Shown here: piece by piece, positions 26,489-38,000 of the stretch | Numbering within the stretch: position 1 is the stretch's first letter | Layout: each line of letters begins with the position of its first letter | DNA from: an uncultured delta proteobacterium | GTDB lineage: Bacteria; Desulfobacterota; WTBG01; CAIYCZ01; CAIRTM01 | Reading direction: 5' to 3' | Length of the DNA stretch: 64,000 nucleotides | Assembly (NCBI GenBank): GCA_963804955.1 | Contig: CAWDSQ010000001.1 | Location: 103,178-167,177, forward strand | Translations under genes and position numbers: made by a program | Notes under the pieces: model-generated | Told to the model about the DNA's origin: nothing | What the model saw: only the letters and a program-made list of their open reading frames with translations | Database searches by the model: none

Positions 26489-27733
26489 ATGCGGGTGAAC
26501 ATGACCAAGCCCGAGCGTGCGCAGGAGGCACTTGAAGAGCGGCTGGAATTTGAGACGCTGCTGGCCAACCTGTCTGCGCATTTTATCAATCTGCCAACCG
26601 ACCGGATAGACAGCGAGATCGTCGACGCTCAGCGCCAGATCTGCCAATGCCTTGATATTGACCGCTCCACCCTGTGGCAAATCCCTGAGGATGAGCCAGG
26701 GGAAATGCTGCTGACGCACGTGCATCAGCCCCCGGGAAGCACGCCGCCCCCGGATCGGATGAGCTTGGGGGAGCTGTTTCCCTGGGCAATGCGGCAGGTC
26801 ATGAGCGGAAGCGTTTTTACCTTCTCGAAAATTTCAGATTTTCCGCCGCAGGCAGCAATCGACAGGGAGAACCTCCGCCGCTACGGCACCAAGGCCGATG
26901 TGCTGGTCCCGCTTTCAAGCGGGGAAGGGCCGGTCTTCGGCCTGTTGACCTTTGCGGTTTTGCGGGAGGAGCGCGTCTGGACCGAGGCGGTTGTGACGGG
27001 GTTCAAGCTTATCGCGCATGTTTTTGCCGGCGCGCTTGTCCGCAAGCGGGCCGATGAGGAACTGCGGCGCCACGAGCAGGAGCTCGGCAGGCTCACCGGA
27101 CGCATTATCAATGCCCAGGAAGAGGAGCTTCGGCGGCTTTCCCGGGAGCTGCATGATGATCTGACGCAGCGGCTTGCGGCCCTGGCGCTTGATGCGGCGC
27201 TGATTGAAAAAGAGCTGCATCCCGCGCAGCCGCGGGCTGTTAACGCCCTCAGGGACATGCGGGCCAGGCTGACCGAGCTTGCCGGGGAAGTCCACAACCT
27301 CTCCCGCCAGCTGCACCCCTCCATTCTCGACGATCTGGGCCTGGCGCAGGCGGTACAGGCTGAATGCGCCGCCTTTGTCAGGAAAACCGGCATTGACCTG
27401 TCCTTTACGCCCCAGGACCTGCCGGATACACTGCCCCAGAACATCGCCCTGTGCCTGTACCGCATAATCCGGGAAGGGCTCCAGAACATTGCAAAACACT
27501 CGGGGGCCGCCGCGGCCGCTATCGCGCTGCACGGGCTCCCGGACGGCATTCGTTTGGTTGTCAAGGACAACGGGAGCGGATTTGACCCGGAAACGGCAAA
27601 GCAGAAGGCCGGCATCGGCCTGTCCAGCATGCGGGAGCGGGTGCGGCTCGTAAACGGCGCCATAGCCATTGCCGCAAAGCCGGGACAGGGTGCTGAAATT
27701 CAGGTCTTTATTCCATTAGGGGACGCCCCATGA
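26489..27733 (+). CDS. Cytoplasmic sensor histidine kinase (GAF plus HisKA_3 plus HATPase)
   Basis: EEELRRLSRELHDDLTQ H-box; EGLQNIAKHS; DNGSGFD; GIGLSSMRER. Confidence 0.92.
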   Translation: MRVNMTKPERAQEALEERLEFETLLANLSAHFINLPTDRIDSEIVDAQRQICQCLDIDRSTLWQIPEDEPGEMLLTHVHQPPGSTPPPDRMSLGELFPWAMRQVMSGSVFTFSKISDFPPQAAIDRENLRRYGTKADVLVPLSSGEGPVFGLLTFAVLREERVWTEAVVTGFKLIAHVFAGALVRKRADEELRRHEQELGRLTGRIINAQEEELRRLSRELHDDLTQRLAALALDAALIEKELHPAQPRAVNALRDMRARLTELAGEVHNLSRQLHPSILDDLGLAQAVQAECAAFVRKTGIDLSFTPQDLPDTLPQNIALCLYRIIREGLQNIAKHSGAAAAAIALHGLPDGIRLVVKDNGSGFDPETAKQKAGIGLSSMRERVRLVNGAIAIAAKPGQGAEIQVFIPLGDAP

Positions 27734-28371
27734 CCAAGCCGCGGCTGCTCATAGCAGACGACCACAAAATTTTTGTTGAGGGTATGAAAAGGCTGCTCAG
27801 CTCTGACTTTGACATCGCCGGTGTGGCCGAAAACGGCCGTGAGCTGGTAGCGGCCGCGGAAAAGCTTCGGCCAGATGTCATCGTTGCCGACATTTCCATG
27901 CCCATGCTCAATGGCATAGACGCCGTGCGGCAGATCAAAAAAGCGCATCCTGAAATCACGGTGGTATTTCTCACCATGCACCCCGATGCAGCCTATGCGT
28001 CAAGCGCCCTGCAGGCGGGCGGGTCGGGCTATGTGCTGAAAAGCTCCGCCCCCGATGAACTCATTACCGCCATCCGCAGGGGCCTTAAGGGAAAAACCTA
28101 TGTAACGCCCCAGATTGCCGGAAAGCTCCGGCATGCCGCCGAGCCCGGTTCCCGGGCCGCCAACGGGACTGGCAGCAGCCTTTCTTCCCGGCAGCACGAA
28201 GTGCTGCAGCTGCTGGCGGAAGGACATGCCGCAAAAGCCATCGCCAGTATTTTGAATATATCCATAAAAACCGTTGAGTATCACAAGTACCGGATGATGG
28301 AGGACCTGGGCATCAAGACAACGGCGGAGCTGATCCGGTATGCCGTGAAGCACGGCATTGCAGGGCCCTGA
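27730..28371 (+). CDS. NarL/FixJ-family response regulator
   Basis: LIADDH, DISMP, LTMH; LuxR HTH LSSRQHEVLQLLAEG...ISIKTVEYHK. Confidence 0.93.
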   Translation: MTKPRLLIADDHKIFVEGMKRLLSSDFDIAGVAENGRELVAAAEKLRPDVIVADISMPMLNGIDAVRQIKKAHPEITVVFLTMHPDAAYASSALQAGGSGYVLKSSAPDELITAIRRGLKGKTYVTPQIAGKLRHAAEPGSRAANGTGSSLSSRQHEVLQLLAEGHAAKAIASILNISIKTVEYHKYRMMEDLGIKTTAELIRYAVKHGIAGP

Positions 28372-28405
28372 TTACCCCCCCCCCAGGAAAAGCATTCCGC
28401 AAAAC

Positions 28406-28450
28406 TAGGATTTCTCCTAATTGACGTTTCACCGCATTGTTCTATATATA
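28406..28450 (+). promoter_or_regulatory. Inverted-repeat operator abutting a -35 element
   Basis: TAGGA-TTTC-TCCTA directly before TTGACG, with a TATATA tract 16-18 nt later. Confidence 0.45.
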
Positions 28451-28524
28451 TCAATAACTCAGTAGACAGTCCCGATCCATCCATCAACGGCGGTCCGCCG
28501 GTACCGGCACAGACGAGGTGATTC

Positions 28525-28929
28525 ATGGCAGCCGAAAGAATAATTCTTGCGGAGTCCCATCAAACCTTTGTGGGCGTGGTTCGCCTGATTCTCGAGGAAA
28601 CGATGAGCGCCCTGTTCATAGTCGCCGACGAGCGCTCTCTTATCGAAGCCGTTGCAGGCACACAATTCGACCTGGTCATTGCGGACCTGTCATTTCCGGC
28701 ATGTTCGGGGGGGAATGTCGTCAGACTGCTGCAAAAACTGAAGCCGGAACTCAAGTCCATCATTCTGAGCGTCCATGACGAGCAGACGGTGGTGAATGAA
28801 TGCCTTGCCGCGGGGGCGAAGGGCTTCGTGCTCAAGAGAGCGGCAGCCACCGACCTGCTTCCGGCCGTGGAGGCGGTTTTAAAGGGCGGAATGTATGTTT
28901 CACCCTATTGCCGCGAACAGGGCGCATGA
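28525..28929 (+). CDS. Single-domain response regulator (REC)
   Basis: IILAESH, LVIADLS, ILSVH, GAKGFVLK. Confidence 0.85.
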   Translation: MAAERIILAESHQTFVGVVRLILEETMSALFIVADERSLIEAVAGTQFDLVIADLSFPACSGGNVVRLLQKLKPELKSIILSVHDEQTVVNECLAAGAKGFVLKRAAATDLLPAVEAVLKGGMYVSPYCREQGA

Positions 28930-29067
28930 CTATACAGAAGCCCGACGGAAGAGCCGGCAGGGAGCCTTGAAAAATTCAGGCAATGAAGGCGCCGCTGTGC
29001 GGGCATAGCAAATAGATTTGACGTGAACCATAACGTTTTTTTACAACAACCACGGAAAGGGCGGCGT

Positions 29068-29772
29068 ATGAAAATGCAGGGAACAAAATGGGCAGGCATG
29101 TTTGCGGTACTGGCGGGCGTATGTCTTTTGGCGGGGGCCTGCGCGACGATGCAGGCGCGCAGCACGACAACAGCGGGATTTCTGGGCGACTATTCCCAGC
29201 TCAAGGAGGGCGGGGAGGGCAAGGCCCTGCTCGTCTATGTCGACCCGGCGGCGGATTTCAAGGCATATCCCCGTATTATGATGGACCCGGTCAAGCTCTA
29301 TGCTTCATCGGAGCACAGCATGCAGAATGTTTCTTCGGAAGACCGGCAGAAACTTTTAAACTATGCCGATGCCACCATTCGTGAACATCTTGCCAAATAT
29401 TATACCTTCGTGAAGAGCCCGGGCCCCGGCGTCATGCGCCTGCGCGTAGCGATAACCGAGGCCGAGAGCTCCTCTGTCGTGCTTGATACCGTCTCCACCA
29501 TCCTGCCGGTGGGCCTTGCCCTGGCCGGCCTTCAGACGGCTGCGACGGGCTCGTGCTCTTTTGTGGGCTCTGCCGGGCTTGAAGTCGAGATGCTGGACAG
29601 CCAGACCGGCAAGCGCCTGGCTGCGGCTGTCGATCGCCGGGTAGGCGGCAAGGTGAGCGGAGAGGGCGATAAATTTGACGAATGGCGCACGGTGAAGAGC
29701 GCTGTCGATTACTGGGCCGGCCGGCTAGAGCTTCGCCTGGGCGAAAAACTCGGCAGAATAGCCACACAGTAA
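29068..29772 (+). CDS. DUF3313-family lipoprotein, copy 2
   Basis: LAGACATMQARS...GFLGDYSQLK; highly similar to 17735 and 45203. Confidence 0.85.
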   Translation: MKMQGTKWAGMFAVLAGVCLLAGACATMQARSTTTAGFLGDYSQLKEGGEGKALLVYVDPAADFKAYPRIMMDPVKLYASSEHSMQNVSSEDRQKLLNYADATIREHLAKYYTFVKSPGPGVMRLRVAITEAESSSVVLDTVSTILPVGLALAGLQTAATGSCSFVGSAGLEVEMLDSQTGKRLAAAVDRRVGGKVSGEGDKFDEWRTVKSAVDYWAGRLELRLGEKLGRIATQ

Positions 29773-29862: not shown

Positions 29863-31350
29863 ATGAAACAGCGATCCTTCAGGATGTTTTCCAGTATGCT
29901 CTCGCTTACCGGCCTGTTCATTGCGGTTTTCAATATCGCACTGATAGTCGTTCTGTCGATTGCCGATGCCCTGTCCGCGGGCACACACCCGTATGCCGAC
30001 CTGGTGATCTGGATCATGCTGCCGTGCGGCGTTTTGTTCGGCGCGGCCCTGATCATTGCCGGCATCCGGCGGCAGCGACGCACGAAAGGCGGGAGCCGCT
30101 TCCCGGTCATCGACCTTAACGATACCGGGCTGCGCAAAAAAGCGCTCGGCCTGCTGACGGTCCTGGTGCTGCTGTCGGTGCTCTATGCCTTTTCCGGGTA
30201 TAAGGCCTATGAGTTTTCCGAATCAAATACATTCTGCGGAGCCTGCCACACCGTGATGGGGCCTGAAACCAGGTCCAACGCCTACTCGCCACACGCACAG
30301 CTCCTGTGCACCAACTGCCACGTGGGGCCCGGGGCAAAGTACTATTTCATCTCCCATCTGAAAGGAGCCCGGGAGGGCTTCAATTACCTGCTCGACAGAT
30401 ACAGCCGGCCCCTTCATACGCCGATTGCGGCCCTGCGTCCATCCGAGCATATATGCGAAAACTGTCACGGCCCCAAGTACCAGTTAAACGAGCGGCTTGA
30501 AAGCCGCACCTATTTCATGTCCGACAAGGAGAATTCACGCAAGAAGATCAACCTGCTGTTTAAGCCGGGTAAAACGGACACCACGCTTGAGCAGCCGCCG
30601 AAAATGCACTGGCACTCAAGCACCACGGCTGAAATCGAGTACGCCGATACTGACCCGAAGCGGATCGAGATTCCGTGGATTCGCGTCAAGCGGCTCGACG
30701 GAACCGTGCGCACCTACCGCCGCGACGACTCGAAGCTCTCGGACGACGACGCGGCAAAGGCCGGGACGAGGCGCATGGACTGCATGGACTGCCACAACCG
30801 GACGGGCCATCCCTTTAACCCCCCGGCGGCTATTCTGAACGCCATGCTCGGGGCGGGGTTCATTGATACGGGCCTGCCGGAGATTAAGCATGTCGGAGTC
30901 CAGACACTTGAAGCCTCCTATGCTTCCCAGGAGGAGGCAGCCAAAGGCATAGAAACGGCAATTCGTGACTTCTATCGCAAGGCCTATCCTGCTGTTGCAA
31001 AGGACAAGGAGGCGGCAATCACCTCAGCGATCACGGCGCTGCAGGGCGCCTACAGCCGCAACTACGACCCGCATATGAAGGTGAGCTGGCGCAGCTTTGG
31101 CAGCAATCAGGGGCATATGTATTCGCCGGGCTGCTTCCGCTGCCATGACGGCAAACACCGAAGCGATGACGGCGCTGTTCTGTCGCAGGACTGCAGCCTG
31201 TGCCACCTGCTGATCGAGCGTGTCCCCGGCCAGGATACTGCCGGAAGCAATCAGGCCGAGATCCGCGTGATGGATTATCCGCACCCCGTTGATATCGGCG
31301 ACAGGTTGCAGACAATGATGTGTACGAAATGCCACGGCCCATCATCGTGA
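29863..31350 (+). CDS. Membrane-anchored NapC/NirT-like heptaheme cytochrome c
   Basis: Three N-terminal TMs; CGACH, CTNCH, CENCH, CMDCH, CFRCH, CSLCH, CTKCH. Confidence 0.88.
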   Translation: MKQRSFRMFSSMLSLTGLFIAVFNIALIVVLSIADALSAGTHPYADLVIWIMLPCGVLFGAALIIAGIRRQRRTKGGSRFPVIDLNDTGLRKKALGLLTVLVLLSVLYAFSGYKAYEFSESNTFCGACHTVMGPETRSNAYSPHAQLLCTNCHVGPGAKYYFISHLKGAREGFNYLLDRYSRPLHTPIAALRPSEHICENCHGPKYQLNERLESRTYFMSDKENSRKKINLLFKPGKTDTTLEQPPKMHWHSSTTAEIEYADTDPKRIEIPWIRVKRLDGTVRTYRRDDSKLSDDDAAKAGTRRMDCMDCHNRTGHPFNPPAAILNAMLGAGFIDTGLPEIKHVGVQTLEASYASQEEAAKGIETAIRDFYRKAYPAVAKDKEAAITSAITALQGAYSRNYDPHMKVSWRSFGSNQGHMYSPGCFRCHDGKHRSDDGAVLSQDCSLCHLLIERVPGQDTAGSNQAEIRVMDYPHPVDIGDRLQTMMCTKCHGPSS

Positions 31351-31414
31351 CCGGCTGCGACAGGGTAATAGACACAGGCCTGACCCTTCTTGATACATAC
31401 AGGAAACAAGGGAT

Positions 31415-33603
31415 ATGAAAAAAAGCATACAACTTTGCATCATTGCCGCCGCAACACTGGCGAGCCTCCTTGCATGCTTCTTCGCCCCGGCGCCAGCCCC
31501 GGCTGAGGAGTCAAGCTGCTTAACCTGCCACCTGTGCGGTCCCATGCTCGTCAAAAACCGCGGCGTGGCCACGCCCATAGTCTCGGCCATGCAGTCAGGG
31601 GCCGGCTGAGGCGGTGCCGTGGCTCAGTTGGAGCCGCACATAAAAGTGCTTGTTTCCCGGGAGTTTCTTGCCACCGCCCATGGTCAAATCGCGTGCGGAA
31701 CCTGCCACGGCGGCGACGCTGCCAGCATGAGCAAAGCAGCCGCTCACAAGGGGATGGATGCATTTCCCTCCATAACCAATCCGCAGAATACCTGCGGCGC
31801 CTGCAAGGACCCGAAAGCGGCACAGCACCGTGACATCGCCGCCTCGGCCAAAGATTCCCTGCACGCCAGCCTTGCCACCTTTACCGGGGTGCTCAAGAGC
31901 CGCGCGAATATGGAAAAATGGGAAACAATCGACGAGGCTCGCAAGAACCACTGCGCCGCCTGTCACACGAGCTGCGGCGGCTGTCATGTGAGCCGTCCCA
32001 AATCAGCGCAGAAGGGCTTTATTGCGGGGCATATCTTTAAAAAGACCCCCGATCAGGTCAATCAGTGCACCGCCTGCCACGGCAGCCGCGTGGGCTATGA
32101 ATTTTCAGGCCAGCGCGGCAGGGGTGATATCCATGCGTCACAAGAGAGTATGACCTGCTCCTCCTGCCACAAGGCAAAAGAGATGCATGCTGCGGCAGCC
32201 AAAGACCTGCCGGGCCGCTATCACCTGCCGGAGGCGGCGCGCTGCGATGATTGTCACAAAGATATGGAGAAAAAGGCCGTGCGGCAGCACGCCGATCATA
32301 TCGGCAAGGTGCAATGCCAGGTGTGCCATTCGCAGACGTATGTCAACTGCTACAGTTGCCATGTGGGCAAAGACAGCCAGAACACGGCCTATTTCCAGAA
32401 CCGTCTTGAAGTTGAAACCATGAAAATCGGGCTCAACTATGACGCTGCAGCTCCGGGCGCCGGCTACCGCTTCATGCTGGTGCGCCACGAGCCGTCGTAT
32501 CCGGAGATGTTCGATTTCTACGGCAAGGATCTCTTCACGAACTTCGGCAAGGTGCCCACCTGGAAGCGGACCTCGCCTCACAACATCCAGAAACTCACCT
32601 GGCAGGCCGCCAGCTGCAACCACTGCCACGCTAATCGCGAGCTGTTCCTTGCAAACGCCGATCTTGCAGACTATGAAATAGGCAGCAAACAAGGCGGTTG
32701 TTGTTCCCGACGCCGACATGCCGAAAGCGGTGCAAGACAGCAGCAAGCTTGACATCGACATATCCCGGGTCAGAACCGGCATGGTGGTTGACGCCCGGTG
32801 GCTGCATGACAACAGCAGGCAGAAGGATCTGGTCGTCATCGATGCCCGCAGCCGCGCTGCCTACGACAAGGGCCATATCGAAGGCGCCATTTCGCTGGAC
32901 CCCCTGGTGAGCGGCCTGCGCACCGGCCCCAAAGCGAAGAACCCCTTCTCGCTTGAAGACCATGCCAAGATTGCCGGCATTTTCGGCAGCAGGGGAATAG
33001 CAGCCGAAGATCATATCGTGGTGTATGACCAGAACGGCACCATGGCGGCAGGTCTGCTGTCTGTTCTGCAATGGGCCGGCGCTGCCAATGTCTCCTATTT
33101 GAACGGCGGCATTGAGGGGTGGCATCTGGCCGGCTTCCACACGAGCACTGAGCCGTATACCCGTGAAGCGCGCACCTTCGGAGGAACCGTCAGGCCGGAG
33201 CTGGTCGTCAGCAGCGCAGAGCTTACCGGGCTTCTGAAAAAGAACACGGTGGTGCTTATCGATACTCGCGCCATTGATCGGGCCAGGGGACTGACACAAC
33301 ATGAGCTGGCCGGCCGTGCAGGCGCTATTGCCGGATCGGTCAATATCCCGCTCGGGGCTTTCTACATGGAAAACGGCTTTTTGAAGCAGCCGGTCCGAGC
33401 TGCTGTGGATGCTAGCCACCTATGGCGTCACGCCGGACAAGACCGTCATCACCACCTGCGACACCGGCATTGCTGCCGCAGATGCCTTTTTCGTCCTTCG
33501 GTATCTTGGATTTTCCAACGCCCGGGTGCATGAAGAAGCCTGGGTGGTGTGGTCTAACACAGTGGATATGACGCCGCTTCAGTGCGGCAGTGGTATTTTT
33601 TAG
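31415..33603 (+). CDS. Predicted selenocysteine-containing multiheme cytochrome c fused to tandem rhodanese domains (UGA at 31607; apparent indels near 32681 and 33393)
   Basis: ORFs 31415 and 31619 share a frame and are separated only by TGA (SGAG-U-GGAV). Signal peptide; 10 CxxCH plus 1 CxxCK; rhodanese signatures YDKGHIEGA, LNGGIEGW and TTCDTGIAA. Confidence 0.75.
31610..31639 (+). promoter_or_regulatory. Candidate bacterial SECIS element
   Basis: Stem GUGGCUC/GAGCCGC with apical loop AGUUG, which follows a 16-nt spacer after the UGA; G then U at loop positions 2-3. Confidence 0.7.
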
Positions 33604-33631
33604 TATAGTAATTGATGTGTGCGTAATAAGT

Positions 33632-33727
33632 CGTCACCCCCGGTGAAAACCGGGGCACAGGGTAGGGGCACGAAGCATCGTGCCCCCCACATAAGAATCC
33701 TGGATACCGGCTTTCGCCGGTATGACG
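33632..33727. repeat. Palindromic REP-like element with a nested GTAG-type REP
   Basis: CGTCACCCCCGGTGAAAACCGGGG...GGATACCGGCTTTCGCCGGTATGACG; inner GTAGGGGCACGAAGCATCGTGCCCC (33662-33686). Confidence 0.6.
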
Positions 33728-33866: not shown

Positions 33867-35055
33867 ATGAAAACGAGCGTCGCAAAGACCGTGAGGACCA
33901 CCCCTTTAAAATTATTACCCTTTTTCCTGATCGCAAGCCTGTTTACTAGTGCTTCCTTCGGGGTGCTCGAAAGAGCAGAAGGCGCCGGCCCTGCCGCCGC
34001 CGGACGTTGAGGTTATCGATGTGGTGCAGAAAGATGTGCCCATCCAGTCCGAGTGGATCGGCACGATCGACGGCATGGTGAACGCCACTATCAGGGCGCA
34101 GGTATCGGGCTATCTCATCAAGCAGAATTACAAGGAAGGCTCGCTGGTAAAAAAAGATGATGTGCTGTTTGAAATAGACCCCCGGCCGTTTCAGGCTGCC
34201 TTTGACCAGGCGCAGGCCGAGCTTGCGCAGCGGCAGGCCCTCTGGGGCACGTCAAAGGCCAATCTTGCGCGCATCCGGCCTCTGGCAAAGAAAAATGCCG
34301 TGAGCCAGAAAGACCTCGACGATGCCGTGGGCGCTGAGCAGTCGCTGCAGGCCGGCGTTCTTGCGGCCAAAGCAGCTTTCGAAAAAGCGGCGCTTGATCT
34401 TGAATTTACAAAAATAAAATCACCCATCGACGGCATTGCAGGCCTTGCCGCCGCACAGATCGGCAACCTCGTGGGGCCGCAAACCGCCGACCTCACCACG
34501 GTTTCCACGGTTGACCCGGTGAAGGTCTATGTGGCGATCAGCGAGCAGGAATACATGCGGTTCATGCAGGATAGCGCCCCGCACAGAACCCCTGGCGCTG
34601 GACCTTGTGCTGTGCCGACGGCAGCCTGTTTCCGCATAAGGGGAAAGTCGCTTTTGCCGACCGGCAGGTTGATGTGAAGACCGGGTCGATTCGCGTTGCC
34701 ACCGAGTTTCCCAATCCCGGCAATGTGCTGCGGCCGGGCCAGTATGCGAAGGTCAGGGCGTCCGTCAAAACGCGCACCGGCGCGCTGCTGGTGCCGCAGC
34801 GGGCGGTTGCCGACATGCAGGGCAGCTATCAGCTGGCCGTCGTCGGCAAGGACAATAAGGTGAGCGTGCGTCGCCGTGAAGGTGGCCGAGCGCATCGGCT
34901 CGCTCTGGATCATCAGCGAAGGCCTGCAGCCCGGCGACCGCGTGATCGTGGAAGGCATTCAGAAGGTCAAGGACGGCATGACGGTTGTGCCGAAACTTTC
35001 AGGCGACAGCCCTGCACCAGCGCCGGCGCCTGCGCCGGCACCCGACAAGAGGTAG
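33867..35055 (+). CDS. RND efflux periplasmic adaptor (MFP); several frameshifts
   Basis: IRAQVSGYL, LFEIDPRPFQA, IKSPIDG, DRQVDVKTGSI, LRPGQYAKV, LLVPQRAV. Confidence 0.88.
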
Positions 35056-35061
35056 CCAGCC

Positions 35062-38000
35062 ATGTCAAAATTCTTCATCAATCGCCCTATTGTGGCCATG
35101 GTTATCTCGATCTTCATGGTCATCCTCGGCGCTGTGGCCATGTCGGGACTTCCCATCGCCCAGTTTCCCAACATTGTTCCGCCGGCTATCCAGGTGAATG
35201 CCGTCTACACCGGCGCCGACGCCGTCACCGTGGAGCAGTCGGTGGCTACCCCGATCGAGCAGCAGATGTCCGGCGTTGACAATCTGGACTACATGTACTC
35301 CGTCAATGCCAACGACGGTTCCATGACCCTCTATAACTACTTCGAACTGGGGACCAACGCCAACACCGACCAGATCCTCTCCCAGATGCGCCAGAACCAG
35401 GCGTCATCGCAACTGCCGGCCGATGTCAACAACTACGGTGTTACGGTGGCGAAATCGACCTCGGCGCCGTACCTCATGTTCGCTCTCTCTTCTCCCAACA
35501 ACACCTACGACAACGTCTTTCTGGCCAACTACTCCTACATCAACATCAACGACCAGATGACCCGCATCAAGGGGGTCGCCAGCGTCTCGGTCTTCGGCGC
35601 CGGCCAGTACGCCATGCGGTATCTGGGTCCGGCCGGACCAGCTTGCCAAGCTCAACATCACCATCCCGGAGATCATGAACGCGGTCAAGGCCCAGAATAC
35701 CGTCAACCCGGCCGGACAGGTCGGGAGCCAGCCGGTGCCGAAGGGGCAGGAGTTCACCTACACGGTTCGCGCCCAGGGGCGTCTGCAGAGCGAGGCCGAG
35801 TTCGGCAATATCGTGCTGCGGGCCAATCCGGACGGTTCCATCGTGCGGGTGAAGGACGTGGCCCGCATCGAGCTTGGGGCACAGAACTACAAACAGGAAG
35901 GGCGCCTCAACGGCAAGCCCTGCGCCCTGGTCGCCCTGTACCAGATGCCGGGAACCAACGCCATGGAATCGGCCAACGGCGCCAAGAAACTGATGGATGG
36001 AGTTGAAGAAGAGCTTCCCGCCTGACCTGGACTACACGGTGGCGCTGGACACCACCCTGGCGGTCTCCGAAGGGATAAAGGAAATCAAGAGCACCTTCTT
36101 CGAGGCGCTGATTCTGGTCATCCTGGTGGTCTTTATCTTCCTCCAGGGGTGGCGGGCCACGCTGATCCCGCTCCTGGCGGTGCCGGTGTCGCTGGTGGGA
36201 ACCTTCGCGCTCTTCCCGCTGCTCGGCTTTTCCATCAACACCCTCTCGCTTTTCGGGATGGTCCTTGCCATCGGCCTGGTCGTGGATGACGCCATTGTCG
36301 TGGTCGAGGCGGTGGAGCATCATATCGAAAAAGGCCTGAGCCCGAAGGATGCCACGTTCAAGGCCATGGAGGAGGTGTCCGGCCCGGTCATCGCCATCGC
36401 CATCATCCTGGCGGCGGTCTTCGTGCCGACGGCCTTCATCCCCGGCATTACCGGCCAGCTTTACCAGCAGTTCGCCGTGACCATCGCCGTCTCGGTCATC
36501 ATTTCGGCCTTCAACGCCCTCACCCTTTCTCCGGCGCTCTGTGCACTGCTGCTGAAGCCGAAGGTCAAGGGAACCGGCCCGCTGCAGAAGTTCTACGACT
36601 GGTTCAACCGGGTCTTCGGCCGGGCCACCGACGGCTACGTGTCAATCTGCGGCGCCGCCATCAGGAAAAGCAAGACCAGTCTGCTCCTGCTGCTCGGGGT
36701 GACCGTCCTGGCCGGGGTAGCGGGTAAGAGCCATTCCGACCGGCTTCCTCCCCGACGAGGACCAGGGCTTTATCTTCGCCAATATCCAGCTCCCCAATTC
36801 CGCTTCGCTGCAGCGGACCAGTGAAGTGGCCCGTCAGGCCGAAGAGATCATCATGAAAACCCCGGGCGTCCAGTACTGTTCGACGATTCTCGGCTACAGC
36901 CTGCTGAGCCAGGTCAGCTAACACCTACAGCGCCTTTTTCTTCATCTCCCTGAAAGAGTGGAAGGAGCGGAAAGCTCCGGAAGAGCAGTACGAGGCGATC
37001 AAGGCCTCCCTGACGAAAAAGATGGGCGGGCTGCCGGGCGCCATCGGCTTCCCGTTCCCGCCACCGGCCATCATGGGGATCGGCACCTCGGGCGGGGCCA
37101 CCTTCATGCTGCAGGACAAGGCCGGCAAGGATGTCGCCTTCCTGGCCGAGAACACGCAGAAATTCATCGAAGCGGCCAGGAAAAGGCCTGAACTGGCCCG
37201 GGTCACCACCACCTTCATCCCCACCGTGCCGCAGCTGTTCGTGGATGTGGACCGGGACAAGGTGCTGAAGCAGGGGGTTGAGATCAGCGACGTCTACAAG
37301 GTCCTGCAGAGCTTCATGGGGAGCGGTTTCATCAACTACTTCAACAAATTCGGCCGCCAGTGGCAGACCTATATCCAGGCCGAGGGGGACTACCGGACCA
37401 ATATCGAGAATATCGGCCAGTTCTATGTGCGCAACAAGGACGGGCAATCAGTGCCCCTCTCGGCGCTGACTTCGGTTCGCAGCATCACCGGCCCGGAATT
37501 CACCATGCGCTTCAACCTCTACCGCTCGGCCCAGATCAACGCCACCGCGGCCCCCGGCTTCAGTTCGGCCCAGGCCATGAAGGCGCTGGAAGAGACCTTT
37601 GCCCAGACCATGCCGCGGGAGATGGGGTACGACTACAGCGGCATGTCGTTCCAGGAGAAGAAGGCCCAGAAGGGGGTCTCGCCGATGGCGATCTTCGCCT
37701 TCTCGTTCCTGTGCGTCTTCCTGATCCTGGCGGCCCAGTACGAAAGCTGGTCGCTGCCGTTCTCGGTCCTGCTGGGAACGCCGGTGGCCGTGGCCGGAGC
37801 CTTCGCCGGCCTGCTCTTCGGAAAATTCGAGAACAACATCTACGCCCAGATCGGTCTGGTCATGCTGATCGGCCTGGCGGCCAAGAACGCCATCCTCATC
37901 GTCGAATTCGCCAAGATGGAGTATGAGAAGGGCAAACCGCTGGTGGAAGCGACCCTGGAGGGCGCCAGGCTGCGCTTGCGGCCGATCCTGATGACCTCCT

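What the first reader, a model, noticed from the sequence alone, without database searches (positions are those of the whole stretch)
31415..31640. Hidden selenocysteine: in-frame UGA plus SECIS joins a 64-aa ORF to the multiheme cytochrome
Seen: ORF 31415-31609 (signal peptide, CLTCH) ends at TGA 31607-31609. The same frame continues without an indel as GGAVAQLEPHIKVLV into ORF 31619, which lacks its own signal peptide although c-type hemes need export. Just downstream is a hairpin (GUGGCUC/GAGCCGC, loop AGUUG) whose loop follows a 16-nt spacer and has G then U near its start. Established: this geometry matches the bacterial SECIS consensus read by SelB. Inference: the protein has Sec in a flexible SGAG-U-GG linker. 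The extra Cys in CLTCHLC could be a redox partner. Standard pipelines would split this gene.
Basis: partly seen in the sequence, partly recalled or inferred. Interest (0 to 1): 0.92.

Follow-up and report, generated by a model that had tools for sequence, protein, structure and literature searches.

The report
Hidden selenocysteine in multihaem cytochrome-rhodanese gene
A stop codon that seems to split a small gene from a large multihaem cytochrome gene almost certainly encodes selenocysteine, revealing a widespread selenium-containing cytochrome family that standard annotation truncates.

Summary
The core interpretation, a hidden selenocysteine (Sec) that joins two ORFs, is strongly supported.

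- **TGA conservation:** TGA 31607-31609 lies in frame between a signal-peptide/haem-1 ORF and a 10-haem ORF. The same TGA is kept in 77 of 80 related loci and in 45 of 46 matches from a 401-genome phylum sample (down to 33% identity).
- **SECIS:** a hairpin starts 9 nt after the UGA and covaries (5 of 8 pairs compensatory).
- **Coding signal:** codon-position variability continues unbroken across the TGA.
- **Sec machinery:** the genome has selA, selB, selD and tRNA-Sec.
- **Cys forms:** distant homologues carry Cys at the column.

The real gene is larger than the finding. It encodes a signal peptide, 11 haem motifs, Sec in a G-x-G-U-G-G motif, and a tandem rhodanese, about 715 aa in intact relatives. 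In the window it is broken by two 1-base insertions (~32680, ~33393). Near-identical contigs from three other runs lack them, so they are probably assembly errors.

It is not MccSep/ExtKL, the known Sec-containing multihaem cytochrome. No NCBIfam model, PDB sequence or searched paper covers it.

The likely function, inferred only, is a periplasmic sulfane-sulfur (polysulfide/thiosulfate) or selenite reductase fed by the adjacent NapC/NrfH-like cytochrome. No structure model could be made.

The parts
29863..31350 (+). Upstream gene: 495-aa membrane-anchored NapC/NirT/NrfH-like multihaem cytochrome, the probable quinol-oxidising electron donor
   Evidence: Pfam PF03264 Cytochrom_NNT scores 28.7 bits (cut-off 24.1) and Cytochrome_C7 41.1 bits. 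NrfH TIGR03153 scores 39.7 bits, below its cut-off of 134. A homologue lies next to the selenoprotein gene in 21 of 80 related loci, in two different arrangements.
31415..31606 (+). N-terminal segment of the selenoprotein: signal peptide plus haem-binding motif 1 (CLTCH, 31517-31531)
   Evidence: Translation. C35, C38 and H39 are invariant in 70 of 70 family members. The signal peptide is judged by eye (KK, a hydrophobic run, then APA-PAEE).
31607..31609 (+). UGA read as selenocysteine (residue 65), in motif S-G-A-G-U-G-G
   Evidence: TGA is conserved in 77 of 80 loci and in 45 of 46 phylum matches. Eleven distant homologues have Cys at the column. Codon-position entropy continues across it. 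An independent contig keeps it.
31619..31637 (+). SECIS hairpin: arms 31619-31625 and 31631-31637, loop AGUUG 31626-31630, starting 9 nt after the UGA
   Evidence: Sequence. Covariation: 94.7% paired, 5 of 8 pairs compensatory, 0 of 500 shuffles as good. Third-codon-position entropy inside the hairpin falls to 0.10-0.76 bits, against about 1.5 elsewhere. Distant subfamilies have hairpins of different sequence at the same place. selD of the same genome has a comparable hairpin 11 nt after its UGA.
31610..32680 (+). Cytochrome domain after Sec: ten more haem motifs (nine CxxCH and one CGACK...H at 31793-31828)
   Evidence: Translation. All motif Cys/His are invariant over 70 sequences. Pfam Cytochrome_C7 scores 28.8 bits. 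The CxxCK variant is described.
32679..32681 (+). Frameshift 1: the window has one extra base, so frame 1 passes to frame 2
   Evidence: The tblastn frame change is. Contigs of runs X1, X2 and X3 have one letter left out at 32679 or 32681.
32685..33392 (+). Rhodanese domain 1 and the start of domain 2 (frame 2)
   Evidence: Pfam Rhodanese E 5e-22. 70% identity to residues 423-658 of the intact L023 protein. The family profile matches bovine rhodanese at E 1e-35.
33392..33394 (+). Frameshift 2: the window has one extra base, so frame 2 passes to frame 3
   Evidence: Contigs of X1 and X2 (at 33392) and X3 (at 33394) have one letter left out.
33385..33603 (+). C-terminal end of rhodanese domain 2 with the catalytic Cys (TTCDTGIAA, Cys at 33457-33459). 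The stop codon is at 33601-33603 (frame 3).
   Evidence: ORF 33409-33603. 68% identity to L023 residues 652-714. The Cys aligns with the catalytic Cys of bovine rhodanese and is nearly invariant (at least 90% of 87 sequences) in alignment A3.

Best explanation
**Shown by comparison.** TGA 31607-31609 is a selenocysteine codon. SelB decodes it with the help of the hairpin at 31619-31637. ORFs 31415-31609 and 31619-32752, plus the two downstream rhodanese ORF pieces up to 33603, are one gene.

Its product is an exported protein, about 715 aa in intact relatives. It has a signal peptide, 11 c-type haem motifs, one Sec 26 residues after haem motif 1 in a conserved G-x-G-U-G-G motif, and a C-terminal tandem rhodanese with its catalytic Cys.

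The two frameshifts in the window copy are most likely 1-base assembly insertions.

**Family.** The family is old and broad. Cytochrome-only relatives at 33-47% identity keep Sec at the same place, each subfamily with its own SECIS hairpin. More distant relatives have Cys there.

**Inferred, about 45% likely.** The protein is a periplasmic terminal reductase for sulfane sulfur (polysulfide, elemental sulfur or thiosulfate), possibly also selenite. Electrons would come from menaquinol through the adjacent NapC/NrfH-like cytochrome and pass along the haem chain. The rhodanese would capture sulfane sulfur as a persulfide. Sec, next to or bound to one special haem, would be the nucleophile that cleaves the S-S bond. 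This resembles MccSep and TsdA-type His/Cys haem enzymes.
For: **Sec claim**
- TGA is kept in frame in 77 of 80 genome-contig loci. The other 3 lack the region: one is cut at a contig end, two lack the N-terminal part.
- In a 401-genome phylum sample, 44 genomes have a match. 45 of 46 matches contain exactly one TGA. The last is cut at a contig start and covers only residues 156-421.
- Twelve fetched distant relatives all keep U at the equivalent place, in the motifs GxGU-GG, GEGU-AGAPP and VAGU-GVSAP.
- The different hairpins of distant subfamilies are.
- Codon-position entropy in the 3 codons between the TGA and the called GTG start is 0.57/0.27/1.55 bits. In the 4 codons upstream it is 0.61/0.37/1.56.
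- Own genome: selB 345 bits, selA 492 bits, selD 334 bits (itself with a TGA), tRNA-Sec 76.7 bits.
- Cys stands at the column in 11 of 25 spanning homologues from the 1.8-billion-protein library.
- The 14 database homologues aligned all begin just after the TGA (MAPLEP... or LEP...), with no signal peptide.

**Architecture**
- Intact relatives have 698-738 aa with Rhodanese in 2 stretches. The PDB rhodanese match has E 1e-35 with the catalytic Cys aligned.

**Frameshifts**
- Contigs from 3 runs of 3 studies lack one base at each site. The RND pump genes downstream are also split into several ORFs.

**Function**
- The rhodanese fusion points to sulfur chemistry. The NapC-like neighbour occurs in 21 of 80 loci in two gene orders, and a small c3-like cytochrome neighbour in 12 loci.
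- Sub-threshold hits all point to the Geobacter selenite/tellurite-reduction (ext) operon cytochromes ExtN, ExtM and ExtO.
- MccSep sets a precedent for a Sec multihaem polysulfide reductase (PMC13510729; introduction and results read).
- Over 70 sequences only 10 conserved non-motif His serve 11 haems, and the cytochrome domain has no conserved free Cys.
Against: - There is no direct evidence of selenium incorporation or expression. The one RNA-library contig across the TGA (X20, 31532-31681) may be DNA carry-over. Only 2 of its 6 differences were printed, so its TGA is not verified.
- On the window alone the hairpin does not fold better than shuffles.
- The window copy carries two frameshifts and could be a real pseudogene.
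- The function is inference only. No structure could be predicted because the tool failed and was then switched off. The position of Sec relative to any haem or to the rhodanese Cys is therefore unknown.
- Most loci (59 of 80) have no NapC-like neighbour within the 3-kb flanks.
- Three homologues have Tyr at the Sec column, one of them a 715-aa rhodanese fusion. Others show Gly, Trp, His, Leu or Arg. A pure nucleophile role does not predict this.
- The His count is a weak argument. One of the 10 His (H358) is present in only 63 of 70 sequences. Met246 (69 of 70) could supply the missing ligand.
Confidence: 0.85

Rival explanations
1. Sec (or Cys in Cys-type relatives) is itself the distal axial ligand of one haem, giving a natural His/Sec-ligated haem c. 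It acts as both ligand and reactive centre, as the ligating Cys does in TsdA, SoxAX or DsrJ. It would then not be a free nucleophile beside the haem. This differs from the best explanation in mechanism, not in the identity of the gene.
For: - Eleven haem motifs are served by only 9 fully invariant non-motif His plus H358 (63 of 70). The cytochrome domain has no conserved free Cys, unlike MccSep, which has a ligating Cys and a separate Sec (PMC13510729 results).
- Clearly aligned residues at this column in non-Sec homologues include Cys (11), Tyr (3) and His (1). All are known haem-iron ligands.
- The Gly-rich G-x-G-U-G-G context would let the side chain reach a haem face (inference).
Against: - No structural model exists.
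- Met246 (69 of 70) could be the eleventh ligand.
- Other homologues show Gly, Trp, Leu or Arg near the column, although alignment there is uncertain. Some may be TGA translated under other codes by the source gene callers, and I could not inspect their DNA.
- That haem-ligand types include Cys, Tyr and His is recalled knowledge, not tested here.
Confidence: 0.2
2. The family is a genuine selenoprotein, but the copy in this genome is a real pseudogene. The two frameshifts at ~32680 and ~33393 are biological, so the organism makes at best a truncated cytochrome without rhodanese.
For: The window sequence as given has both frameshifts. The contigs that lack the extra bases differ from the window at other positions too, with 8-25 differences per piece. 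They are therefore related strains, not the same DNA.
Against: - Both shifts are single extra bases.
- All three independent runs lack them.
- The sequence on both sides stays 68-76% identical to intact relatives, with no further stops in the correct frames.
- Neighbouring RND efflux genes are fragmented in the same way, which suggests a general indel error rate in this 36-contig, 87%-complete assembly.
Confidence: 0.12
3. The enzyme's physiological role is reduction or detoxification of selenite/tellurite, or it acts oxidatively in thiosulfate/sulfide oxidation or sulfur disproportionation. It would then not be a respiratory sulfur/polysulfide reductase.
For: - The only NCBIfam hits of the cytochrome part, all far below cut-off, are to cytochromes of the Geobacter 'selenite/tellurite reduction operon': ExtN 32 bits, ExtM 20-52 bits, ExtO 31-38 bits.
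- MccSep also reduces selenite (PMC13510729 results).
- Many hosts named in the record titles are Desulfobulbaceae, Desulfocapsa or Desulfofustis-type MAGs. I recall these groups as sulfur disproportionators or oxidisers.
Against: Operon names in NCBIfam are annotations, not tests, and the scores are far below the cut-offs. No ExtI/ExtH-type porin or lipoprotein neighbours recur in the loci. Nothing here discriminates the direction of the reaction.
Confidence: 0.2
4. TGA is an ordinary stop or a sequencing error. In that case a 64-aa monohaem peptide and a separate 10-haem protein starting at GTG 31619 are two genes.
For: Gene callers make exactly this call. A GAGG lies 7 nt before the GTG, which could mimic a ribosome-binding site (by eye).
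Against: - TGA is conserved in 77 of 80 and 45 of 46 comparisons. It is never seen as TAA or TAG, which a mere stop would allow.
- Coding-type third-position variation continues across the 9-nt 'intergenic' gap.
- Cys homologues exist.
- The downstream ORF lacks a signal peptide, although c-type haem attachment is periplasmic (established knowledge).
- An independent contig keeps the TGA.
Confidence: 0.02

Closest known systems
MccSep / ExtKL (GSU2937-2936) of Geobacter sulfurreducens, NCBIfam NF040886: the Sec-containing multihaem cytochrome c polysulfide reductase (PMC13510729, Sci Adv Aug 2026; outline, introduction and results read)
   Same: Both are periplasmic multihaem c-type cytochromes. 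In both, an in-frame UGA with a downstream SECIS was annotated as a gene split. Both are found mainly in Desulfobacterota and Nitrospirota, and Cys-type relatives exist for both. A role in sulfur chemistry is plausible here. In Geobacter the gene sits in an operon with a rhodanese (ExtH); here the rhodanese is fused.
   Different: - No detectable sequence relationship: NF040886 does not hit this gene, and no PDB chain matches the cytochrome part.
- 11 haem motifs here against 5 in MccSep.
- Sec is 26 residues after haem 1 in G-x-G-U-G-G, not near the C-terminus in a D-G-U-P loop of an Ig-like domain.
- There is no conserved haem-ligating free Cys.
- A tandem rhodanese is fused to the C-terminus.
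ExtN (NCBIfam NF040967), a c-type cytochrome of the Geobacter extHIJKLMNOPQS 'selenite/tellurite reduction' cluster
   Same: It is the only named family with an alignment over most of the cytochrome domain: L023 residues 78-413 against model positions 24-348 of 415. This suggests remote common ancestry and a shared sulfur/selenium-reduction context.
   Different: The score is 32 bits against a cut-off of 200, so this is not a member. The match starts after the Sec, so nothing shows that ExtN has the haem-1/Sec segment. ExtN has no rhodanese fusion.
His/Cys-ligated haem enzymes of sulfur metabolism (TsdA, SoxAX, DsrJ), recalled and also cited in PMC13510729 for TsdA
   Same: These are multihaem or dihaem c-type cytochromes in which a chalcogen side chain at a haem is the reactive centre for S-S chemistry. 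This is the working analogy for what Sec does here.
   Different: No sequence similarity was found. Ligation by Sec is a hypothesis only.
Tandem-domain rhodaneses (bovine rhodanese 1RHD/1DP2, E. coli SseA 1URH, YnjE) and the periplasmic polysulfide-sulfur transferase Sud of Wolinella (recalled)
   Same: The C-terminal ~290 aa match at E 1e-35 over both domains, with the catalytic Cys aligned. Sud is a precedent for a periplasmic rhodanese that feeds sulfane sulfur to a reductase.
   Different: Here the rhodanese is covalently fused to an 11-haem selenoprotein. The active-site loop is C-[DN]-T-G-x-x rather than CRKGVT.

Membership tests
Bacterial selenoprotein gene (SelB/bSECIS-dependent UGA recoding) | In-frame UGA conserved among orthologues, with the coding signal continuing across it | tested here: met
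   77 of 80 loci and 45 of 46 phylum matches keep the TGA. Codon-position entropy is unchanged across it.
Bacterial selenoprotein gene (SelB/bSECIS-dependent UGA recoding) | Stem-loop shortly downstream of the UGA with G (and U) at the start of the apical loop, at the bSECIS spacing (16-37 nt from UGA to loop, recalled from the bSECISearch model) | tested here: met
   In most relatives the hairpin is 8 bp with loop GUU. In the window it is 7 bp with loop AGUUG, 16-17 nt from UGA to loop. Covariation. bSECISearch itself was not available. Rfam has no match.
Bacterial selenoprotein gene (SelB/bSECIS-dependent UGA recoding) | Sec machinery (selA, selB, selD, tRNA-Sec) in the same genome | tested here: met
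   All four score above the curated cut-offs.
Bacterial selenoprotein gene (SelB/bSECIS-dependent UGA recoding) | Homologues with Cys at the Sec column | tested here: met
   11 of the 25 aligned spanning hits have Cys in G-C-G-G-type motifs. Only 25 of the 74 hits were aligned, namely those whose match spans residue 65.
Bacterial selenoprotein gene (SelB/bSECIS-dependent UGA recoding) | Selenium shown in the protein | not testable with these tools
   Needs 75Se labelling or mass spectrometry.
MccSep / ExtKL (NF040886) | Profile score above the curated cut-off (250 bits) | tested here: not met
   There is no hit for the read-through protein. An own-genome search gives a best score of 33 bits elsewhere and none at this gene.
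MccSep / ExtKL (NF040886) | Five CxxCH motifs, a haem-ligating conserved Cys, and Sec in a C-terminal Ig-like domain (PMC13510729) | tested here: not met
   This family has 11 motifs, an N-terminal Sec and no conserved free Cys.
ExtN (NF040967) | Profile score above the cut-off (200 bits) | tested here: not met
   32.1 bits for L023 and 37.4 bits for L103. This is remote similarity only.
Tetrathionate reductase family octahaem cytochrome (TIGR04315), listed as a GenBank-annotated selenoprotein family in PMC13188914 | Profile score above the cut-off (375 bits) | tested here: not met
   19.2 bits.
Rhodanese / tandem-domain sulfurtransferase (PF00581), C-terminal part | Two rhodanese domains with the catalytic Cys in the second | tested here: met
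   Pfam scores 78.7 bits in the window piece and 108 bits in 2 stretches in L023. The PDB profile match has E 1e-35 with the Cys aligned. The window keeps TTCDTG.
NapC/NirT/NrfH quinol dehydrogenases (upstream gene 29863-31350) | N-terminal membrane anchor plus the NapC/NirT tetrahaem region | tested here: inconclusive
   PF03264 scores 28.7 bits, above its cut-off of 24.1. The equivalog models NrfH (39.7 of 134) and NapC/NirT (19.8 of 310) are far below cut-off. The protein is much longer, at 495 aa.

The most novel reading that the evidence does not exclude
This family contains a naturally selenolate-ligated haem. Sec65, on its Gly-rich loop, would be the distal axial ligand of one of the 11 c-type haems, with Cys, Tyr or His taking that place in non-Sec relatives. 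It would act as ligand and catalytic centre together, giving a TsdA-like chalcogen-on-haem mechanism built with selenium and coupled to a fused rhodanese. To my knowledge (recalled), no natural His/Sec haem has been described.
Probability: 0.2. Interest if true: 0.9.

Novelty: new variant of a known kind. Interest (0 to 1): 0.72.

Why it matters
1. **Annotation.** This abundant gene was found in 44 of 401 sampled genomes of the phylum. Public databases systematically truncate it to a signal-less 'rhodanese-like domain-containing protein' or 'thiosulfate sulfurtransferase'. Its export, its first haem and its selenium are therefore invisible to metabolic reconstructions of sulfur- and metal-cycling Desulfobacterota, Nitrospirota and others.

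2. **Enzymology.** It is a second line of Sec-dependent multihaem cytochromes, with no detectable sequence relationship to MccSep, which was characterised only in August 2026. This suggests that selenium-on-haem chemistry for S-S cleavage is a recurrent solution. This version has a different layout: no partner Cys, 11 haems and a fused sulfur-carrier domain.

3. **RNA and protein overlap.** The peptide V-A-P-L-E-P after Sec is visibly shaped by the SECIS hairpin. Compensatory RNA changes even alter amino acids (E to G or A). This is a clean example of RNA structure constraining protein sequence.

4. **Testable question.** It makes concrete whether nature uses a selenolate haem ligand.

Tried and rejected
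- **Structure prediction.** A full-length AlphaFold job on alignment A3 was accepted and polled, then failed as interrupted. No model, no fold search and no Sec-to-haem distances were possible. Complex prediction was not used. It returns scores only and allows at most 4 ligands, against the 11 haems needed here.
- **Single-sequence folding** of 31600-31660 gave z = -0.75 and a different MFE pairing. It is uninformative alone, and comparative analysis replaced it.
- **Rfam**, with permissive thresholds on 31300-31900, gave only two chance-level hits (snoR1, COG3860 RNA). No bacterial SECIS model applies.
- **ARAGORN** on the window found no tRNA. tRNA-Sec lies on another contig.
- **PDB** by sequence and by profile found nothing for the cytochrome part. 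The best hit was NrfA at E 0.05.
- **ESM Atlas.** The window ORF is not held. The stored homologue P0077 gave only generically named multihaem clusters and no structure search.
- **Literature.** Seven searches were run (plus in-paper term searches). No description turned up of an 11-haem or rhodanese-fused Sec cytochrome.
  - The 2026 review table (PMC13188914; passages seen by term search only) lists ExtKL, a GSU2204-family protein and TIGR04315 as its three 'cytochrome' mentions.
  - Haft & Gwadz 2023 (PMC9879109) is not held.
  - The family lists of BSepDB, deep-Sep and the MccSep paper are in supplements, which are closed. I cannot exclude that the family is listed there.
The idea that the window's extra Cys (CLTCHLC) partners Sec is rejected, because the Cys is not conserved.
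- **Sec pairing with the rhodanese Cys** as the primary role is rejected. Cytochrome-only subfamilies without rhodanese keep Sec.
- **RNA-library contig.** X20 (31532-31681) spans the TGA. It is not counted as evidence of expression or of the TGA, because DNA may be present in such libraries and only 2 of its 6 differences were printed.
- **Habitat labels** of runs with small word shares are not used.


Full report
**1. Observation**

- An ATG ORF at 31415 encodes MKKSIQLCIIAAATLASLLACFFAPAPAPAEESSCLTCH..., a plausible signal peptide followed by a CxxCH haem motif. It stops at TGA 31607-31609.
- The same frame continues without interruption (GGAVAQLEPHIKVLV...) into the called ORF 31619-32752. 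That ORF carries ten more haem motifs and has no signal peptide of its own.
- The hairpin lies at 31619-31637: GUGGCUC / loop AGUUG / GAGCCGC. Sixteen nt separate the UGA from the loop.
- Folded alone, the region is no more stable than shuffled sequence (z = -0.75), and the MFE uses a different pairing. The window by itself therefore does not prove the hairpin.

**2. Is the TGA a Sec codon?**

*Machinery.* The window's genome has 36 contigs and is 87% complete. It has selB (345 bits), selA (492 bits), selD (334 bits, itself with one in-frame TGA) and tRNA-Sec (76.7 bits, beside selA). All score above the curated cut-offs.

*Database homologues.*
- The 120 listed database homologues of the read-through protein are mostly about 640 aa and carry Rhodanese plus cytochrome Pfam domains. 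All cover at most 85% of the query.
- The 14 that I aligned begin at MAPLEP... or LEP..., directly after the TGA position. Strong conservation right up to a called start is typical of a missed N-terminal extension.

*DNA of relatives.* I fetched 80 related loci from species-representative genomes.
- 77 of 80 have an in-frame TGA in the motif G-x-G-U-G-G-x-[VL]. It is preceded by a signal-peptide-like segment and a CxxCH.
- The other three lack the region. L097 is cut by a contig end. L098 and L101 have no N-terminal part.
- No locus had TAA, TAG or a sense codon at the column.

*Phylum sample.* In an even sample of 401 genomes of the phylum, 44 have a match at E <= 1e-30. Of 46 matches, 45 contain exactly one TGA. 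The remaining one starts at a contig edge and covers only residues 156-421.

*Distant relatives.* Twelve relatives at 33-47% identity were fetched.
- They are cytochrome-only proteins of 412-475 aa with 10-11 CxxCH motifs.
- All keep U at the equivalent place, in three motif flavours: GxGU-GGxVAP, GEGU-AGAPP and VAGU-GVSAP.

*Cys forms.* I searched 1.84 billion representative proteins with window residues 1-130 (C for U). This gave 74 hits at E <= 1e-3.
- I aligned the 25 hits whose match spans residue 65 (motif view).
- Eleven have Cys at the column, for example GGCGG or GGCGAPPP.
- Three have Tyr. One of these, P0133, is a 715-aa rhodanese fusion.
- The rest show Gly, Trp, His, Leu or Arg, with uncertain alignment.
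- Some Trp or Gly forms may be TGA translated under other codes by the source gene callers.
- A Sec/Cys pair at one column is the classical signature of a real selenoprotein.

**3. The SECIS element**

I aligned 78 sequences from -12 to +62 around the TGA. The alignment has no gaps (A2).
- The consensus is UGA, then 9 nt, then GUGGCUCC-GUU-GGAGCCRC.
- For this 8-bp helix, 94.7% of cells pair, against 37-49% when the 3' arm is slid by 1-3 columns.
- Five of 8 pairs show double (compensatory) changes, and 0 of 500 column shuffles reach the observed values.
- Some compensatory changes alter the protein. GGCCCC/GGGGCC gives PLGP and GGCGCC/GGCGCC gives PLAP. The RNA pairing is therefore being preserved at the expense of the peptide.
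- Third-codon-position entropy inside the hairpin is 0.10-0.76 bits, against about 1.5 bits in flanking codons.
- The window has a C-to-A change (Pro to Gln). It opens the top pair, giving 7 bp and the loop AGUUG.
- Distant subfamilies, with unrelated peptides after Sec, have their own hairpins at the same distance, with GU-containing loops.
- As an internal control, selD of the same genome has a 9-bp hairpin 11 nt after its UGA, with a loop beginning with G.
- The three codons between the TGA and the called GTG start show the same codon-position entropy pattern (0.57/0.27/1.55) as the four codons before the TGA (0.61/0.37/1.56). This is coding constraint across the supposed intergenic gap.

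**4. Independent reads**

I laid contigs of four public runs on 31300-33700.
- X1 record 1 covers 31442-31803. All 8 of its differences are listed and none lies at the TGA.
- At both places where the window's frame breaks, contigs from three studies have one base fewer than the window. X1 and X2 lack one at 32681 and 33392. X3 lacks one at 32679 or 32681, and at 33394.
- Removing one base at each site restores a single frame.

**5. The whole gene**

A tblastn of the intact L023 protein (715 aa) against the window gives three collinear pieces:
- frame 1, 31415-32677, 76% identity;
- frame 2, 32685-33392, 70% identity;
- frame 3, 33373-33561, 68% identity.

Intact relatives have 698-738 aa.

The C-terminal ~290 aa are a tandem rhodanese. 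Pfam finds two stretches. The family profile matches bovine rhodanese and bacterial 3-mercaptopyruvate/thiosulfate sulfurtransferases at about E 1e-35, with the catalytic Cys aligned. The window retains it (TTCDTGIAA, Cys at 33457-33459).

The window's frameshifts are probably assembly indels, for three reasons. Relatives in three runs lack them. The downstream RND efflux genes are fragmented in the same way. No other damage is visible. A real pseudogene cannot be excluded (about 12%).

**6. What family is it?**

- No NCBIfam model reaches its cut-off for the window protein, for L023 or for distant members.
- The best extended hit is ExtN at 32-37 bits against a cut-off of 200, aligning only after the Sec.
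- ExtKL/MccSep (NF040886) does not hit the gene.
- TIGR04315 scores 19 bits against a cut-off of 375.
- The cytochrome part has no relative among PDB sequences, by single sequence or by profile.
- MccSep, as described in PMC13510729, has 5 haems, a His/Cys-ligated haem 2 and Sec325 in a D-G-U-P loop of a C-terminal Ig-like domain. None of these features applies here.
- The family therefore works like a known kind, the Sec-dependent multihaem cytochrome. It is not a member of the known family.

**7. Mechanism (inferred)**

Over 70 family members:
- All 11 haem motifs are invariant.
- The non-motif invariant His are H89, H111, H150, H206, H240, H258, H292, H295 and H389, plus H358 in 63 of 70.
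- Met246 is present in 69 of 70.
- The cytochrome domain has no conserved free Cys.
- This gives ten candidate distal His for 11 haems. One haem is probably special: ligated by Sec, ligated by Met, or five-coordinate with Sec nearby.

Cytochrome-only subfamilies keep Sec, so its role belongs to the cytochrome domain and not to a partnership with the rhodanese Cys.

The rhodanese fusion suggests that the substrate is sulfane sulfur delivered as a persulfide. The sub-threshold similarity to ext-operon cytochromes and the MccSep precedent point the same way.

The likely electron input is the upstream NapC/NrfH-like 495-aa membrane cytochrome. Its homologue is adjacent in 21 of 80 loci. In one search the window and L023-L025 have it upstream on the same strand, and 17 loci have it downstream and convergent. 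Twelve loci instead have a small c3-like cytochrome downstream. The other loci show no recurrent partner within the 3-kb flanks.

I rate the sulfur/polysulfide/thiosulfate-reductase reading at about 45%. I rate selenite/tellurite reduction or an oxidative/disproportionation role at about 20%. Independently, I rate direct Sec-haem ligation at about 20%.

**8. Novelty**

- Seven literature searches and eight in-paper term searches found no description of this family.
- The family tables of BSepDB, deep-Sep and the MccSep paper are in supplements that I could not open.
- Current NCBI names for members are 'rhodanese-like domain-containing protein' or 'hypothetical protein', on N-terminally truncated models.
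- I classify it as a new variant of a known kind. Sec insertion is standard and a Sec multihaem cytochrome is known. This one has no detectable sequence relationship to it, a different architecture, and a wide distribution.

**9. Limits**

- There is no experimental evidence for selenium or for expression.
- There is no structural model, because the tool failed and was then closed.
- The function is inferred from domain content, neighbours and analogy.
- The counts come from species-representative genomes that are not independent of one another phylogenetically.

Noticed in passing
window 31793-31828: The third haem motif reads CGACK-DPKAAQ-H, that is CxxCK plus 6 residues and then His. This occurs in the window and its three closest relatives (L023-L025), 4 of 70 sequences. 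The other 66 have plain CxxCH. CxxCK is the motif of the Lys-ligated catalytic haem of NrfA (recalled), so this clade may have re-ligated haem 3.
   Followed up: partly
window 33949-37000: The downstream RND efflux genes (membrane-fusion protein and AcrB-like pump) are each split over several overlapping ORFs in different frames. This looks like the same kind of 1-base indel as in the selenoprotein gene and suggests a general indel error rate in this assembly.
   Followed up: no
G000:C28:1709-2632 (L010) and G000:C25:34560-36365 (L009, L015): The genome's selD is itself a selenoprotein (..SAGU-AAK..) with a 9-bp hairpin 11 nt after the UGA. tRNA-Sec lies about 380 nt from selA on the same strand.
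   Followed up: partly
P0124, P0133, P0153: A sub-branch has Tyr at the Sec column (G-x-G-Y-[AG]-V-x-x-A-P-F-D). P0133 is a 715-aa form with the rhodanese fusion. Other hits show Trp or Gly directly before G-G/A-G, for example GEGW-AGE. These could be real, or TGA translated under codes 4 or 25 by the source pipelines.
   Followed up: no
L065:3160-3192; L098; L101: Some genomes carry damaged extra copies. L065 is a second copy in the same MAG as L027. It has a TAA eight codons after the Sec codon, just after the hairpin (PLEP*EKVLV). L098 and L101 lack the N-terminal haem-1/Sec part. Genomes G028 and G202 each have two intact-looking copies.
   Followed up: no
window 29023-29772 and 27730-28929: Upstream of the cytochrome pair lie a DUF3313 lipoprotein-like gene (Pfam 190.9 bits) and two response-regulator-like ORFs. 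Only 1-2 of the 80 related loci have homologues of these, so they are probably not part of the module.
   Followed up: partly
window 31466-31477: In the window only, the signal peptide contains L-L-A-C, which could be read as a lipobox. The closest relatives have no Cys there, so lipidation is not a family feature.
   Followed up: no
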